Virus record (IMG/VR): IMGVR_UViG_2718218139_000011
Direction: 5' to 3' (one strand)
Source: a virus
Lineage: Duplodnaviria; Heunggongvirae; Uroviricota; Caudoviricetes
DNA length: 45,230 nt
The position numbers were made by a program, and so were the translations under genes. Numbering within the stretch: the first letter of the stretch is position 1; every line of letters starts with the position of its first letter. Shown one piece after another: positions 40,605 through 41,969 of this stretch. The notes under the pieces were generated by a model. That model worked only from the letters and a program-made list of their open reading frames with translations. It had not been told where the DNA came from and did no database searches.

Positions 40605-40668
40605 CCAACCTCATCTATTTGATTAACTGTATGCCATCGTGGTGATGGCTTAACAGCTGCCTGCTTAA

Positions 40669-40690
40669 AATGTTTTGATAAAAAAACATT
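40669..40690. promoter_or_regulatory. Putative operator palindrome (OL-like), overlapping a TTGACC -35-like hexamer
   Basis: AATGTTTT-gataaa-AAAACATT, same half-site and 6-bp spacer as the OR-like site. Confidence 0.45.
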
Positions 40691-41027
40691 GACCTGAAAA
40701 GTTCATTTTTCCAAACTTCATTCATTCCCTCACCCCACAGAATGCAGGGTAATACTTCGAGTTACCAGGCAGTGGTCAGGGGTTAAGTAGCCAGCCCGAG
40801 GCGTAAGAACATGACGGCAGGGTTCAACTTTAACTATGCAGCAGGTTTTTGTTCCGCTACCCCGGCGTTAAGGGGAAACAGAGGATTTCTCAGTGGGCGA
40901 AGTCAAACATCAGAATGGAAGGCATCCAGGGATCAGCAAAGAAACAGCGCTGGCGCTTTATATTGATATCAGCGCCATTGCCGGACAGGTAAGAATTATC
41001 AGAGCGGTAACCAAGCGGTATGCGCCT

Positions 41028-41228
41028 TTACTTCAGAAAGTCTCTGGTGAGTGCACCGAAGATATTGTCAACGATTTCGTCATCAAACTGCGAGGACTCA
41101 TCTTCAGTTACAAGGTGACCACAATTTTTGCAGATGGCTCCCGCGAAACTGTCAGAGCCCTGCGGCTTAAAGGATGTGTCAAAGACTTCGCCGCCACATT
41201 CTGGGCAAGAAAACTTGATTGTATTCAT
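41028..41228 (-). CDS. Small zinc-ribbon protein
   Basis: MNTIKFSCPECGGEV...AICKNCGHLV: two CxxC pairs including CPxCG; ATG preceded by GAGAGGAA. Confidence 0.55.
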   Translation of the reverse strand: MNTIKFSCPECGGEVFDTSFKPQGSDSFAGAICKNCGHLVTEDESSQFDDEIVDNIFGALTRDFLK

Positions 41229-41320
41229 AACCAATTTCCTCTCGAGTAACAGATCCCTCAGAGGATACCACCTCGCCTGACGTGGTTAAAAGCAGGCAAC
41301 GCTAACCACAAGGAGCCGAC

Positions 41321-41539
41321 ATGCAGAAACGAGAACCCGTCATCATCGCGCCAGACTATACCGATGATGAACTTTATGAGTGGATGCACCAGAAAATTAA
41401 GGCAGCGCAGGACCTGAAATGGGCCAATGAAGCCAGGGCTAAGCAGGCTGAAAATCTGTCCGCTCTGGAGCAGGGTATCACCAATCTGGAAAAAGCAGCG
41501 GCATTAAGCATTGCCAGAATGATTACATACCCACGTTAA
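41321..41539 (+). CDS. Hypothetical 72-aa protein in the early-left operon
   Basis: ATG preceded by AAGGAG; no recognised homolog. Confidence 0.5.
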   Translation: MQKREPVIIAPDYTDDELYEWMHQKIKAAQDLKWANEARAKQAENLSALEQGITNLEKAAALSIARMITYPR

Positions 41540-41561
41540 TAGCTAACCAACGAGGCTAATA

Positions 41562-41969
41562 ATGGAATTTAAAGATTTACCAAAAGAAATCCAGACAATT
41601 GCTGCAACGACTCTCGGTGATAGTCTGGTGAAAATTGACCCGGCATACACCAAAAAAGAAACCATCGATAATATGGTTCGTAATGTGCGCAATGCTTTTT
41701 CTGGGCTATATGGTTCTGATAATCAAAAGCAGGAAAACGATGTTAATAAACGGTTAATTTCTGTTTGCGTGAATGGCCATGTTCTTTCATCAATCAAAAC
41801 AGAAACAGCGACAGTCTTCGATTGCCTTTGCATTGTACAGAGCCTTGTTGATGCCCTGTTTCGTTCAGTGAATTTAGAAAATGATGCAAATCTGCGAGGG
41901 CGCACAATAGCACATCCATATGCACATACTTTAGGCTCTGTGGATATCAAAGATCCCACAAATCTTTAA
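41562..41969 (+). CDS. Hypothetical 135-aa protein in the early-left operon
   Basis: ATG preceded by GAGG; no recognised homolog. Confidence 0.5.
   Translation: MEFKDLPKEIQTIAATTLGDSLVKIDPAYTKKETIDNMVRNVRNAFSGLYGSDNQKQENDVNKRLISVCVNGHVLSSIKTETATVFDCLCIVQSLVDALFRSVNLENDANLRGRTIAHPYAHTLGSVDIKDPTNL

What the first reader, a model, noticed from the sequence alone, without database searches (positions are those of the whole stretch)
40605..41969. Uncharacterised gene set beside cI: zinc-ribbon protein on the opposite strand plus two plus-strand ORFs with good RBSs
The segment downstream of cI is the lysogen-expressed slot where lambda carries rexAB. Here it holds a CPxCG zinc-ribbon ORF on the minus strand and 72-aa and 135-aa plus-strand ORFs, none matching anything I recognise. 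A 118-aa plus-strand ORF overlaps the zinc-ribbon gene antisense, so which strand codes is not settled.
Basis: inference. Interest (0 to 1): 0.6.

Follow-up and report, generated by a model that had tools for sequence, protein, structure and literature searches.

The report
Nested antisense genes beside prophage repressor
The DNA after this prophage's repressor gene is the start of a known, normally silenced early operon (the one that makes DicF and DicB), but its first gene has a small zinc-ribbon gene nested on the opposite strand, and sequence evolution indicates that both strands encode protein.

Summary
A repressor-operator copy and a TTGACC promoter lie 67-110 nt after cI, so there is no rexAB-like slot. 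The plus-strand ORFs are the promoter-proximal genes of a Qin/dicBF-type early-left operon: leader, 118-aa ORF in the ydfA/ydfB position, ydfC (96% identical to K-12), a 633-bp accessory cassette, then DicF, dicB and ydfD. In lysogens this operon is expected to be off.

The strand question resolves as "both". The 66-aa zinc-ribbon gene (NCBIfam ECs_2282 family) is under strong purifying selection (pooled pN/pS 0.22, p=2e-24). It belongs to a family of about 60 clusters of 58-75-aa proteins with four invariant Cys. The antisense 118-aa ORF is under selection where it lies outside the overlap (pN/pS 0.43, p=2e-7). It has its own Shine-Dalgarno sequence and stays open in four families that share only about 30% identity.

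The zinc-ribbon gene sits behind a 37-nt promoter-like element. The same element precedes a different opposite-strand ORF in other prophages, which is moron architecture.

The 135-aa ORF is a truncated member of a family with interchangeable C-termini. Its convergent partner gene is frameshifted here. All functions remain unknown.

The parts
39966..40604 (+). cI-type repressor (HTH plus S24 self-cleaving domain), 212 aa
   Evidence: Pfam Peptidase_S24 at 2e-13 and a sub-threshold HTH_3 match (22.0 bits, cut-off 23); PHROG 4 transcriptional repressor at 1.6e-40.
40671..40717 (+). Putative OL operator(s) and early-left promoter (pL / dicBp equivalent). Operator copy at 40671-40689, weaker copy at 40697-40716, -35 TTGACC at 40689-40694, -10 CAAACT at 40712-40717.
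   Evidence: A 19-nt repeat family has three copies: two in the cro-cI gap (39903-39921, 39949-39967) and one here. The pattern GTTT-N8-AAAC occurs 5 times in the window against 0.9 expected, and three of the five are these sites. The hexamers are my reading; the consensus scan did not list them.
40724..40892 (+). Operon leader. From 40733 onward it is shared with phages of other immunity. The element at 40851-40878 is also found directly upstream of ydfA in K-12 Qin.
   Evidence: Homology breakpoints at 40733 and 40851 in dozens of loci. The 28-nt match to K-12 is 96% identical and lies just before the ydfA Shine-Dalgarno sequence. The fold is not unusual, z = -0.15.
40893..41249 (+). 118-aa operon-sense ORF (phrog_21318) in the ydfA/ydfB slot. 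Its C-terminal two thirds overlap the zinc-ribbon gene antisense, with second codon positions coinciding.
   Evidence: Outside the overlap, pooled pN/pS is 0.43, p=2e-7; three of the other five frames are near 1, anti f0 is 0.83 and the third-position mirror frame (0.41) carries stops. It is open in four families and has a Shine-Dalgarno sequence. The AF2 model is weak, pLDDT 61.
41028..41228 (-). 66-aa zinc-ribbon gene of the ECs_2282 family, nested entirely inside the 118-aa ORF
   Evidence: NCBIfam NF047912 scores 57.2 bits against a cut-off of 37. pN/pS in its frame is 0.22, p=2e-24. A profile search finds 61 clusters of 58-75-aa proteins. All four Cys are invariant in an alignment of 37 of these proteins.
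41262..41298 (-). 37-nt promoter-like element for the zinc-ribbon gene: -35 TTAACC at 41289-41284, 16-nt spacer, TG at 41270-41269, -10 TATCCT at 41267-41262
   Evidence: The hexamers are invariant in 42 unique variants while the flanks vary. A 27/31 match lies upstream of the remote fam88 zinc-ribbon gene. The element is 100% identical in more than 1000 genomes that lack the module, and in both loci inspected (L184, L185) it lies 34 nt upstream of a different minus-strand ORF. It falls below the threshold of the simple scan.
41321..41539 (+). ydfC, 72 aa, function unknown
   Evidence: 95.8% nt identity to K-12 b1573. NCBI's pipeline names it 'protein YdfC'. phrog_1744 at 7.5e-39.
41560..42192 (.). 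633-bp accessory cassette, absent from K-12 Qin and from most relatives
   Evidence: K-12 is contiguous across 41559|42193. Most IMG/VR relatives jump from 41578 to 42193.
41562..41969 (+). 135-aa ORF (phrog_1363). It is a C-terminally truncated or swapped member of a 201-aa family that has a conserved 50-aa N-terminus (MEFKDLP...) and at least four unrelated C-terminal variants.
   Evidence: dN/dS against the Salmonella homologue is 0.44 in frame; four of the other frames give 0.66-0.84 and the third-position mirror frame 0.46. There is no Pfam, NCBIfam or PADLOC hit. AF2 pLDDT is 51.
41947..42179 (-). Frameshifted remnant of a 77-aa convergent gene (phrog_10348). Only 55 codons stay open in the window (42012-42179).
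   Evidence: There is a 1-bp deletion relative to phage Evi, and NCBI's pipeline calls the gene 'frameshifted' in L001. The intact protein matches phrog_10348 at 3e-45.
42514..42565 (+). DicF sRNA (context, outside the finding)
   Evidence: Rfam RF00039, 76.7 bits against a gathering score of 48.
42740..43116 (+). dicB (42740-42928) and ydfD/DUF1482 (42925-43116) (context)
   Evidence: Pfam DicB at 1.7e-37 and DUF1482 at 3.7e-25.

Best explanation
Window 40.6-42.2 kb is the promoter-proximal part of a Qin/dicBF-type early-left operon. The operon is transcribed rightward from a cI-repressed promoter about 90-110 nt after cI.

The gene order is: leader; a 118-aa ORF where Qin has ydfA and ydfB; ydfC; a 633-bp accessory cassette (135-aa ORF plus a frameshifted convergent gene); DicF precursor; dicB; ydfD. 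These plus-strand genes should therefore be silent in a stable lysogen and made on derepression.

A 66-aa ECs_2282-family zinc-ribbon gene is nested entirely inside the 118-aa ORF on the other strand. It has its own Shine-Dalgarno sequence and a portable 37-nt promoter-like element of extended -10 type. Both strands encode protein. The zinc-ribbon frame carries most of the constraint. The operon-sense ORF is constrained in its non-overlapping N-terminus and is kept open across the overlap.

Inferred mechanism: the zinc-ribbon gene is a moron transcribed against the early promoter. It is expressed while pL is repressed, that is, in the lysogen. Its convergent transcription and fully complementary mRNA oppose leaky read-through toward the toxic dicF and dicB genes. 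Strong pL transcription overrides it on induction, so the two products are made in mutually exclusive states.

The protein is a zinc ribbon followed by an amphipathic helix. It most likely acts by binding a protein or nucleic-acid partner. Its position recalls sieB, which lies on the opposite strand inside the Rac early-left operon.

Shown here: the anatomy, the operon identity and the selection on both frames. Inferred: promoter activity, lysogen expression, RNA or transcriptional interference, and the biochemical role.
For: Operon identity:
- DicF at 76.7 bits; DicB and DUF1482.
- ydfC and the stretch from the DicF precursor through ydfD are 95-96% identical to K-12 Qin.
- The conserved leader element lies directly before the 118-aa ORF's Shine-Dalgarno sequence, exactly as it does before ydfA in K-12.
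- An operator repeat and TTGACC lie just after cI.
- The immunity-module boundary is at 40733.
- In the literature the dicBF transcript starts upstream of ydfA and is repressed by DicA (PMC5069750, PMC10448788).

Zinc-ribbon gene is real:
- NF047912 at 57.2 bits against a cut-off of 37.
- dN/dS 0.07-0.11 among close relatives and 0.08 at dS 1.46.
- Pooled pN/pS 0.22, p=2e-24.
- 61 clusters of 58-75-aa relatives in the profile search; four invariant Cys in the 37 aligned.

Operon-sense ORF is real:
- Non-overlap pN/pS 0.43, p=2e-7, against 0.8-1.3 in the control frames apart from the mirror frame; one pair shows 5 synonymous and 0 non-synonymous changes.
- The mirror frame carries stops.
- It is open in nearly all of about 70 unique sequences from four families, and it is always co-directional with the surrounding early operon, whether pL-side or pR-side.
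- Zinc-ribbon-synonymous changes are biased toward conservative changes in the long frame (P=0.03). None of 62 makes a stop (P=0.056).

Own promoter:
- The hexamers are invariant in 42 variants.
- The element is conserved upstream of a zinc-ribbon gene with only about 30% identity.
- It is reused, 100% identical, upstream of a different minus-strand ORF in other prophages.

Positional precedent: sieB lies on the opposite strand between ydaF (a ydfA homologue) and kilR in Rac.
Against: - There are no expression data of any kind.
- Promoter, operator and transcription start assignments are sequence readings. Neither the pL hexamers nor the zinc-ribbon promoter reached the threshold of the consensus scan.
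- No terminator was found for the zinc-ribbon transcript.
- Inside the overlap, long-frame pN/pS is 0.74 (p=0.045) and dN/dS is 0.8-1.9 in single pairs. Zinc-ribbon synonymous sites are as saturated (dS 1.46) as neutral sites. Selection on the overlapped two thirds of the 118-aa protein is therefore weak at best.
- This antisense frame is intrinsically stop-poor.
- The AF2 model of the 118-aa protein is mediocre (pLDDT 61) and has no structural neighbour.
- In the window, codon 20 is CTG where most relatives have ATG, so the start used here (GTG at 40893) is assumed.
- The five pairs pooled are not perfectly independent.
- No family hit gives any function.
Confidence: 0.6

Rival explanations
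1. Only the zinc-ribbon gene makes a functional protein. The 118-aa ORF is a shadow ORF, or it is translated only so that ribosomes cover the operon mRNA across the antisense insert. That would avoid Rho-dependent polarity on ydfC, dicF and dicB. In either case its amino-acid sequence is irrelevant.
For: - In the overlap, long-frame dN/dS is 0.8-1.9 and pooled pN/pS is 0.74.
- Zinc-ribbon synonymous sites look unconstrained, with dS 1.46.
- The frame in which second codon positions coincide is naturally poor in stops.
- AF2 pLDDT is 61 with no fold match.
- In L184/L185 another opposite-strand ORF behind the same 37-nt element is likewise spanned by a long operon-sense ORF, as the ribosome-cover idea predicts.
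- NCBI's pipeline does not annotate the 118-aa ORF.
Against: - The non-overlapping N-terminus evolves as a protein (pN/pS 0.43, p=2e-7; 5 synonymous and 0 non-synonymous changes in one pair).
- The N-terminal motif L-x-I-D-x-S/T-x-I/V recurs in families with about 30% identity.
- Conservative-substitution bias, P=0.03.
- It occupies the ydfA translation-start position.
- A pure ribosome-cover ORF would not need a conserved N-terminal peptide.
Confidence: 0.2
2. The nested pair is a toxin-antitoxin-like or toggle module. One product, or its mRNA, neutralises the other. The complete antisense overlap enforces mutually exclusive expression and makes cells dependent on the prophage, or sharpens the lysis-lysogeny decision.
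For: - The module is self-contained and moves as a unit between pL-side and pR-side early operons in four families.
- The two mRNAs would be complementary over about 200 nt.
- A type I pair, ralR/ralA, exists in the Rac early-left region.
- L090 carries a PaaA2-ParE pair next to the module, so the neighbourhood does accept addiction genes.
Against: - Neither protein resembles a known toxin or antitoxin: PADLOC, Pfam and NCBIfam give nothing.
- The zinc-ribbon protein is hydrophilic and acidic here, unlike type I toxins.
- Decayed zinc-ribbon copies with an intact partner frame exist (P0002, P0005, P0008). That argues against strict addiction.
Confidence: 0.1
3. One reading: the whole set is a lysogen-expressed, rexAB-like accessory or defence locus downstream of cI.
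For: It lies next to cI. All products lack a known function. The minus-strand gene is plausibly independent of pL.
Against: - The operator and promoter lie immediately after cI, and no ORF lies between them.
- The plus-strand ORFs belong to the ydfC-DicF-dicB operon, which the repressor silences in Qin.
- There is no convincing PADLOC hit (best E 0.002, partial).
- The 135-aa ORF and its partner are truncated and frameshifted here.
Confidence: 0.05
4. Only the 118-aa ORF is real, and the zinc-ribbon ORF is a chance antisense ORF.
For: Prodigal- and RAST-type callers pick the longer ORF (23 protein clusters). A PHROG family, phrog_21318, exists for it.
Against: - Zinc-ribbon-frame pN/pS is 0.22, p=2e-24.
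- Four invariant Cys across 37 aligned relatives of constant 58-75-aa size, drawn from 61 clusters.
- Its Shine-Dalgarno sequence and promoter-like element are conserved.
- tblastn with the zinc-ribbon frame reaches remote phages, and tblastn with the long frame does not.
Confidence: 0.02

Closest known systems
dicBF operon of cryptic prophage Qin, E. coli K-12 (dicA | ydfA-ydfB-ydfC-dicF-dicB-ydfD)
   Same: The layout is the same: repressor, then an operator-controlled promoter, then small ORFs, a long untranslated region with DicF, dicB and ydfD. ydfC and the DicF-to-ydfD segment are 95-96% identical. The leader element before the first gene is the same.
   Different: ydfA and ydfB are replaced by the nested 118-aa / zinc-ribbon pair. 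A 633-bp cassette is inserted after ydfC. The repressor is a full-length S24 cI-type protein of 212 aa, not the short DicA.
NCBIfam NF047912, 'ECs_2282 family putative zinc-binding protein'
   Same: The 66-aa protein scores 57.2 bits against a cut-off of 37 over the whole model. NCBI's pipeline uses this name in near-identical genomes.
   Different: The family has a name only and no described function. Its nesting inside a conserved antisense ORF is recorded neither in the family name nor in the annotations seen here.
sieB of Rac and lambdoid phages (superinfection exclusion gene inside the early-left operon)
   Same: In Rac it is an independently oriented gene embedded in the repressed early-left operon, close to the repressor, between a ydfA homologue and kil. 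It is a moron-like, lysogen-side gene.
   Different: There is no sequence similarity. SieB is a larger protein (a 489-nt gene in K-12) and, from my own knowledge, a membrane protein. The zinc-ribbon protein is small and soluble. Rac sieB is not nested in an operon-sense ORF in the K-12 annotation.
Experimentally supported antisense overlapping genes of E. coli O157:H7 (for example ano in ECs2385; the oloz genes; PMC5960689, PMC9927249)
   Same: A short ORF is embedded antisense in another ORF and has its own promoter-like element and Shine-Dalgarno sequence.
   Different: Here the embedded gene is the strongly conserved partner and belongs to a broad protein family. The pair is conserved across four families with about 30% identity, and the evidence is evolutionary rather than from expression data. 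The published cases are mostly young ORFs inside conserved 'mother' genes.
Lambda rexA-rexB
   Same: Adjacent to cI, with an accessory function.
   Different: rexAB lie between cI and OL/pL and are co-transcribed with cI. Here OL/pL follows cI directly and the plus-strand ORFs lie beyond it. There is no homology.
Lar/RalR restriction-alleviation zinc-ribbon proteins (Pfam PF14354)
   Same: Small prophage-encoded proteins with a CPxCG...CxxC zinc ribbon, from an early-left region.
   Different: The window protein has no PF14354 hit at E<0.1. The best relative reaches 21.5 bits against 28.6. hhalign gives 47% probability over the 30-column ribbon core only.

Membership tests
ECs_2282 zinc-ribbon family (NCBIfam NF047912) | Whole-protein score at or above the curated cut-off of 37 bits | tested here: met
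   57.2 bits, model positions 1-56 of 60.
ECs_2282 zinc-ribbon family (NCBIfam NF047912) | Four Cys in a CxxC...CxxC arrangement, in a protein of about 65 aa | tested here: met
   C8, C11, C33 and C36 are present. All four are invariant in 37 aligned relatives of 58-83 aa.
ECs_2282 zinc-ribbon family (NCBIfam NF047912) | Binds zinc | not testable with these tools
   Inferred from the Cys pattern only.
YdfC | Full-length similarity to E. coli K-12 b1573 | tested here: met
   95.8% nt identity over 239 nt. The 72-aa proteins differ at 3 residues. NCBI's pipeline names it 'protein YdfC'.
dicBF-type early-left operon (Qin) | Gene order ydfC - untranslated region with DicF - dicB - ydfD, downstream of the repressor gene and on the same strand | tested here: met
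dicBF-type early-left operon (Qin) | Promoter between the repressor gene and the first ORF, overlapped by repressor operators | tested here: inconclusive
   An operator-like repeat shared with the cro-cI gap, and TTGACC-17-CAAACT, lie at 40671-40717. There are no binding or transcription data, and the promoter is below the threshold of the scan.
dicBF-type early-left operon (Qin) | ydfA (DUF1391) and ydfB as promoter-proximal genes | tested here: not met
   Only the 28-nt leader element matches K-12. The slot holds the 118-aa / zinc-ribbon pair.
Lambda rexAB-type lysogen-expressed slot | Genes lie between cI and OL/pL and are co-transcribed with cI | tested here: not met
   The operator copy lies 67 nt after the cI stop with no ORF between.
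Bona fide antisense overlapping (dual-coding) gene pair | Purifying selection in the frame of the embedded gene | tested here: met
   Zinc-ribbon frame pN/pS 0.22, p=2e-24; dN/dS 0.07-0.11.
Bona fide antisense overlapping (dual-coding) gene pair | Purifying selection in the frame of the enclosing gene, outside the overlap | tested here: met
   pN/pS 0.43, p=2e-7. Four of the five other frames give 0.83-1.32. The mirror frame (0.41) shares third positions and has stops.
Bona fide antisense overlapping (dual-coding) gene pair | Selection on the enclosing frame inside the overlap, beyond what the embedded frame imposes | tested here: inconclusive
   pN/pS 0.74, p=0.045. Conservative-change bias P=0.03 and no stops P=0.056. 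Zinc-ribbon dS is not reduced.
Bona fide antisense overlapping (dual-coding) gene pair | Both products are expressed | not testable with these tools
   Needs Ribo-seq or tagging. No paper in the library mentions the protein.
Lar/RalR (Pfam PF14354) | Score at or above the Pfam gathering threshold | tested here: not met
   No hit for the window protein. The best relative reaches 21.5 bits against 28.6. hhalign gives 47% over the ribbon core.
Known anti-phage defence systems (PADLOC) | Significant match of any of the ORFs to a PADLOC model | tested here: not met
   The only matches are E about 0.002 partial hits of the zinc ribbon (MTase_II, PDC-M14A). The other ORFs give nothing.

The most novel reading that the evidence does not exclude
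The nested pair is a conserved, mobile two-state module for early phage operons. One DNA segment encodes a lysogen-state zinc-ribbon protein on one strand and an induction-state protein on the other. Complete antisense overlap enforces mutually exclusive expression through transcriptional collision and RNA duplex formation. The two proteins act antagonistically on the same decision, for example keeping the toxic dicF/dicB arm or the replication arm shut and then releasing it. That would be a functional dual-coding switch, not a gene plus a shadow ORF. The 37-nt element would be a reusable promoter cassette for such opposite-strand inserts.
Probability: 0.12. Interest if true: 0.8.

Novelty: new variant of a known kind. 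Interest (0 to 1): 0.5.

Why it matters
The operon itself is known. The dicBF operon matters because DicF and DicB affect cell division, metabolism and phage resistance.

Three things are new:
- About 17% of complete E. coli genomes (936 of 5,426) carry a variant in which the first operon gene and a conserved zinc-ribbon gene share the same DNA on opposite strands.
- There is evolutionary evidence that both frames are read.
- A portable promoter-like element points against the early promoter.

Well-supported antisense dual-coding pairs are rare in bacteria and phages, and they are disputed. This pair is conserved down to about 30% identity and sits in a genetically tractable locus. Stop codons that are silent in the other frame can be designed, so the question can be tested directly.

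The case also exposes a systematic annotation conflict: NCBI's pipeline keeps one strand and Prodigal- or RAST-type callers keep the other. It also suggests an extra layer of control over a toxic prophage operon.

Tried and rejected
- Function by homology. Pfam, NCBIfam, PHROGs and PADLOC gave no function for any ORF. There were only generic sub-threshold zinc-ribbon hits and PHROGs of unknown function.
- PDB sequence profile search with the zinc-ribbon family. It returned only generic CxxC matches.
- AF2 models. The 118-aa ORF gave pLDDT 61 and the 135-aa ORF pLDDT 51. Foldseek against PDB with the former gave nothing below E=0.2. I did not search with the latter because the model is too poor.
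- Lar/RalR and YdaE kinship. Rejected.
- Genome-contig scan for the zinc ribbon. It returned only two unrelated zinc-ribbon proteins; L006 is a 371-aa membrane protein.
- DNA for the remote zinc-ribbon relatives found. Whether those relatives are also nested remains untested beyond the four families with DNA.
- RNA features. Rfam, including permissive mode, found no RNA family other than DicF. The leader fold is not unusual.
- N-like antiterminator reading of the first ORF. Rejected: there is no Arg-rich N-terminus, and the module also sits in pR-side operons.
- Literature. Searches for ECs_2282 and for the peptide found nothing.
- dN/dS for ydfC and the 135-aa ORF among close relatives. Uninformative because there were too few changes. 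Only the Salmonella comparison helped.
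Full report
**Observation.**
- A minus-strand ORF lies at 41028-41234. From its ATG at 41228 it gives 66 aa, MNTIKFSCPECGG...CKNCGH.
- Plus-strand ORFs lie at 41321-41539 (72 aa) and 41562-41969 (135 aa).
- A plus-strand 118-aa ORF at 40893-41249 covers the whole zinc-ribbon ORF antisense.
- All four have Shine-Dalgarno sequences (read).
- The strand ambiguity shows up in public annotation. NCBI's pipeline annotates only the minus-strand gene, as 'ECs_2282 family putative zinc-binding protein', in a 99%-identical E. coli locus. The annotation of phage Evi has only the plus-strand 118-aa ORF.

**Setting.**
- The flanking genes are a P22-Cro-type cro and a YdaT-family gene on the minus strand.
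- On the plus strand lies a 212-aa cI-type repressor with an S24 domain and a sub-threshold HTH_3 match.
- Downstream of the finding are DicF (Rfam 76.7 bits against a gathering score of 48), dicB (Pfam 1.7e-37) and ydfD/DUF1482 (3.7e-25).
- Comparison with the K-12 Qin prophage gives three matches. Window 41321-41559 is ydfC at 95.8%. Window 42193-43298 is the ydfC-dicF spacer, dicF, dicB and ydfD at 95.5%. The 28-nt element at 40851-40878 matches the sequence just before the ydfA ribosome-binding site.
- This is therefore a dicBF-type early-left operon.
- In Qin the polycistronic transcript starts at dicBp upstream of ydfA and is repressed by DicA. ydfA, ydfB and ydfC have no known function (PMC5069750; PMC10448788).

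**Where the early promoter is.**
- A 19-nt pseudo-palindromic repeat occurs twice in the cro-cI gap (39903-39921, 39949-39967) and once at 40671-40689, 67 nt after the cI stop.
- The core pattern GTTT-N8-AAAC occurs five times in the window against 0.9 expected, and three of the five are these sites.
- The third copy abuts TTGACC (40689-40694). A 17-nt spacer and CAAACT follow. This is my reading; the pair is below the threshold of the consensus scan.
- Dozens of related loci with other repressors begin their similarity to the window at 40733 or 40851. That is the expected position of an immunity-module boundary just downstream of pL.
- There is therefore no rexAB-like space between cI and its left operator. 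The 118-aa ORF, ydfC and the 135-aa ORF lie in the repressed operon.

**Which strand codes at 40893-41249.** I collected DNA for four families of this module.
- G1 is the window type: about 80 IMG/VR loci plus L090 and L092.
- G2 comes from Citrobacter, Klebsiella and metagenomes. The zinc-ribbon protein is 70% identical and the long ORF 93-102 aa.
- fam88 comes from Klebsiella and Enterobacter phages. The zinc-ribbon protein is about 29% identical.
- fam89 is the KP12 type, about 34% identical.

In all four families both frames are open in nearly every unique sequence. The long ORF always runs with the surrounding early operon, whether left of the repressor or right of cro. The zinc-ribbon ORF always runs against it. 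The two frames share second codon positions.

Nei-Gojobori counts give the following.
- In the overlap, dN/dS is 0.07-0.11 in the zinc-ribbon frame and 0.9-1.9 in the long frame.
- At 26% nt divergence in fam88, the zinc-ribbon frame gives 0.08 at dS 1.46 and the long frame gives 0.83.
- Outside the overlap, the long frame gives 0.16-0.45. Most other frames are near or above 1, apart from the third-position mirror frame and, in some pairs, the pos2-pos2 antisense frame. One pair shows 5 synonymous and 0 non-synonymous changes.
- Pooled over five roughly independent pairs: zinc-ribbon frame pN/pS 0.22 (p=2e-24); long frame outside the overlap 0.43 (p=2e-7); long frame inside the overlap 0.74 (p=0.045).
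- The only other frame with a low ratio outside the overlap is the mirror frame that shares third positions. It carries stop codons in most lineages.
- Among 62 zinc-ribbon-synonymous third-position changes, the resulting long-frame replacements are more conservative than random synonymous changes of the same transition or transversion class (P=0.03). None creates a stop (P=0.056).

My conclusions from this are as follows.
- The zinc-ribbon gene is certainly real.
- The operon-sense ORF is translated and its N-terminus is a selected peptide.
- Its overlapped part is kept open but is only weakly constrained.

**The zinc-ribbon family.**
- The protein passes NCBIfam NF047912 (57.2 bits against 37).
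- An exhaustive profile search finds 61 clusters at 50% identity. Nearly all are 58-75 aa and match end to end.
- Thirty-seven aligned relatives have four invariant Cys and a recurrent D-D-[FL]-x-G-A-x-C-x-x-C-G-H-x-[IV]-T-E-D-D motif, followed by an amphipathic helix.
- Members occur in Pectobacterium genomes and in many metagenomes.
- Pfam and PDB give only generic zinc-ribbon matches.
- Similarity to Lar/RalR is confined to the ribbon core.
- tblastn with the zinc-ribbon frame reaches remote phages, and tblastn with the long frame does not.

**A promoter-like element for the minus-strand gene.**
- Upstream of the zinc-ribbon start, the minus strand reads TTAACC, 16 nt, TG-g-TATCCT (41289-41262).
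- Among 42 unique G1 variants, the only variable site inside 41262-41298 is 41275, in the spacer, while the flanks vary.
- A 27/31 match lies in the same place in fam88, whose coding sequence is only about 30% identical at protein level.
- The 37-nt stretch 41262-41298 is 100% identical in more than 1000 E. coli genomes, and in phages HannyBb and mEp460, that lack the module.
- In the two loci I inspected (L184 from HannyBb, L185) it lies 34 nt upstream of a different minus-strand ORF, a 106-aa hydrophobic protein. A long operon-sense ORF also spans that ORF.
- The same upstream element with different cargo in the same orientation is the signature of a portable promoter, that is, moron architecture.
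- This remains an inference. The hexamers score 8 of 12, below the scan threshold. No terminator was found.

**The other genes.**
- ydfC is the K-12 gene with 3 residue differences.
- Relative to K-12 and to most relatives, 41560-42192 is an insertion.
- Its 135-aa ORF belongs to a family that has a conserved 50-aa N-terminus and at least four unrelated C-terminal parts, giving proteins of 124, 179-186, 201 and 208-212 aa. The window form is the 201-aa type cut at residue about 128.
- Each of the three cassette types for which I had DNA carries a different small convergent gene of 63, 69 or 77 aa. All belong to PHROGs of unknown function.
- The window's copy of the 77-aa gene has a 1-bp deletion, and NCBI's pipeline flags it as frameshifted in L001.
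- Against the Salmonella homologue, the 135-aa frame has dN/dS 0.44. Four of the other frames give 0.66-0.84 and the third-position mirror frame 0.46.
- The AF2 model is poor, pLDDT 51.
- This cassette looks like an exchangeable accessory unit, and here it is partly decayed.

**Mechanism.** The shown and inferred parts are set out under the best explanation. In brief, I read the zinc-ribbon gene as a moron transcribed against the early promoter, active while pL is repressed. Its transcription and its fully complementary mRNA would oppose leaky expression of the toxic dicF/dicB arm, and pL would override it on induction. The nearest positional precedent is sieB, which lies on the opposite strand between ydaF (a ydfA homologue) and kilR in Rac.

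The main rival is that the 118-aa ORF has no protein function. It could be kept open only so that ribosomes cover the operon mRNA across the insert. The parallel arrangement in L185 fits this idea. The selected N-terminal peptide argues against it.

**Novelty and score.**
- The operon, ydfC and the zinc-ribbon family name are already known.
- Not previously described, as far as the searchable literature shows: the conserved nested antisense pair with selection on both frames, its mobility between pL- and pR-side operons, and the reusable 37-nt element.
- The module is common, found in 936 of 5,426 complete E. coli genomes.
- Function is unknown and no expression evidence exists, so I score interest at 0.5.

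Noticed in passing
window 41262-41298; L184 and L185 2501-2537: This 37-nt element is 100% identical in more than 1000 E. coli genomes, and in phages HannyBb and mEp460, that lack the zinc-ribbon module. In L184/L185 it precedes a different minus-strand ORF, a 106-aa hydrophobic protein that NCBI's pipeline does not annotate. A 153-aa operon-sense ORF (phrog_35040) also overlaps that ORF, so this may be a second nested pair.
   Followed up: partly
window 42514-42565, 42740-42928, 42925-43116: A complete DicF sRNA gene (Rfam 76.7 bits), dicB and ydfD/DUF1482 lie downstream, 95.5% identical to K-12 Qin.
   Followed up: yes
window 43210-45230: An IS3-family insertion sequence lies at 43557-44713 (HTH_Tnp_1 ORF at 43557-43859, rve ORF at 43895-44713). 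An inverted partial second copy with an identical OrfB N-terminus lies at 44754-45230. Only the first 72 codons of the exonuclease gene that follows ydfD in relatives remain, at 43210-43428. The early-left operon is therefore truncated and the prophage is probably defective.
   Followed up: partly
window 40851-40878: A 28-nt leader element (GTTCCGCTACCCCGGCGTTAAGGGGAAA, with a CCCC/GGGG hairpin) lies immediately before the first-gene ribosome-binding site here, in K-12 Qin (before ydfA) and in L184/L185. It is also a frequent recombination breakpoint. Its function is unknown.
   Followed up: partly
window 41562-42192; L180 5001-5775; L182 5001-5849; L002 4333-4951: The MEFKDLP-family gene has interchangeable C-terminal parts, each paired with a different small convergent gene of 63, 69 or 77 aa. 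In two of the three types the 3' ends overlap by exactly 23 nt. This may be a cognate two-gene cassette of unknown function.
   Followed up: partly
L090 2031-2509; L095 1293-1577: In some relatives, toxin-antitoxin genes (PaaA2-ParE, HigB) sit between the repressor gene and the nested module. That shows the same neighbourhood accepts lysogen-side accessory genes.
   Followed up: no
L001 3162-3500: In the closest E. coli genome (strain PEC240), only a 112-aa 'LexA family protein' is annotated where the window has the 212-aa cI. The repressor may be truncated or mis-started there.
   Followed up: no
window 40950-40952: Codon 20 of the 118-aa ORF is CTG in the window but ATG in most relatives. 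Some NCBI records hold a 99-aa form that starts there, and the G2 homologues start at the equivalent position. The window copy may depend on the upstream GTG at 40893, or it may be poorly translated.
   Followed up: partly
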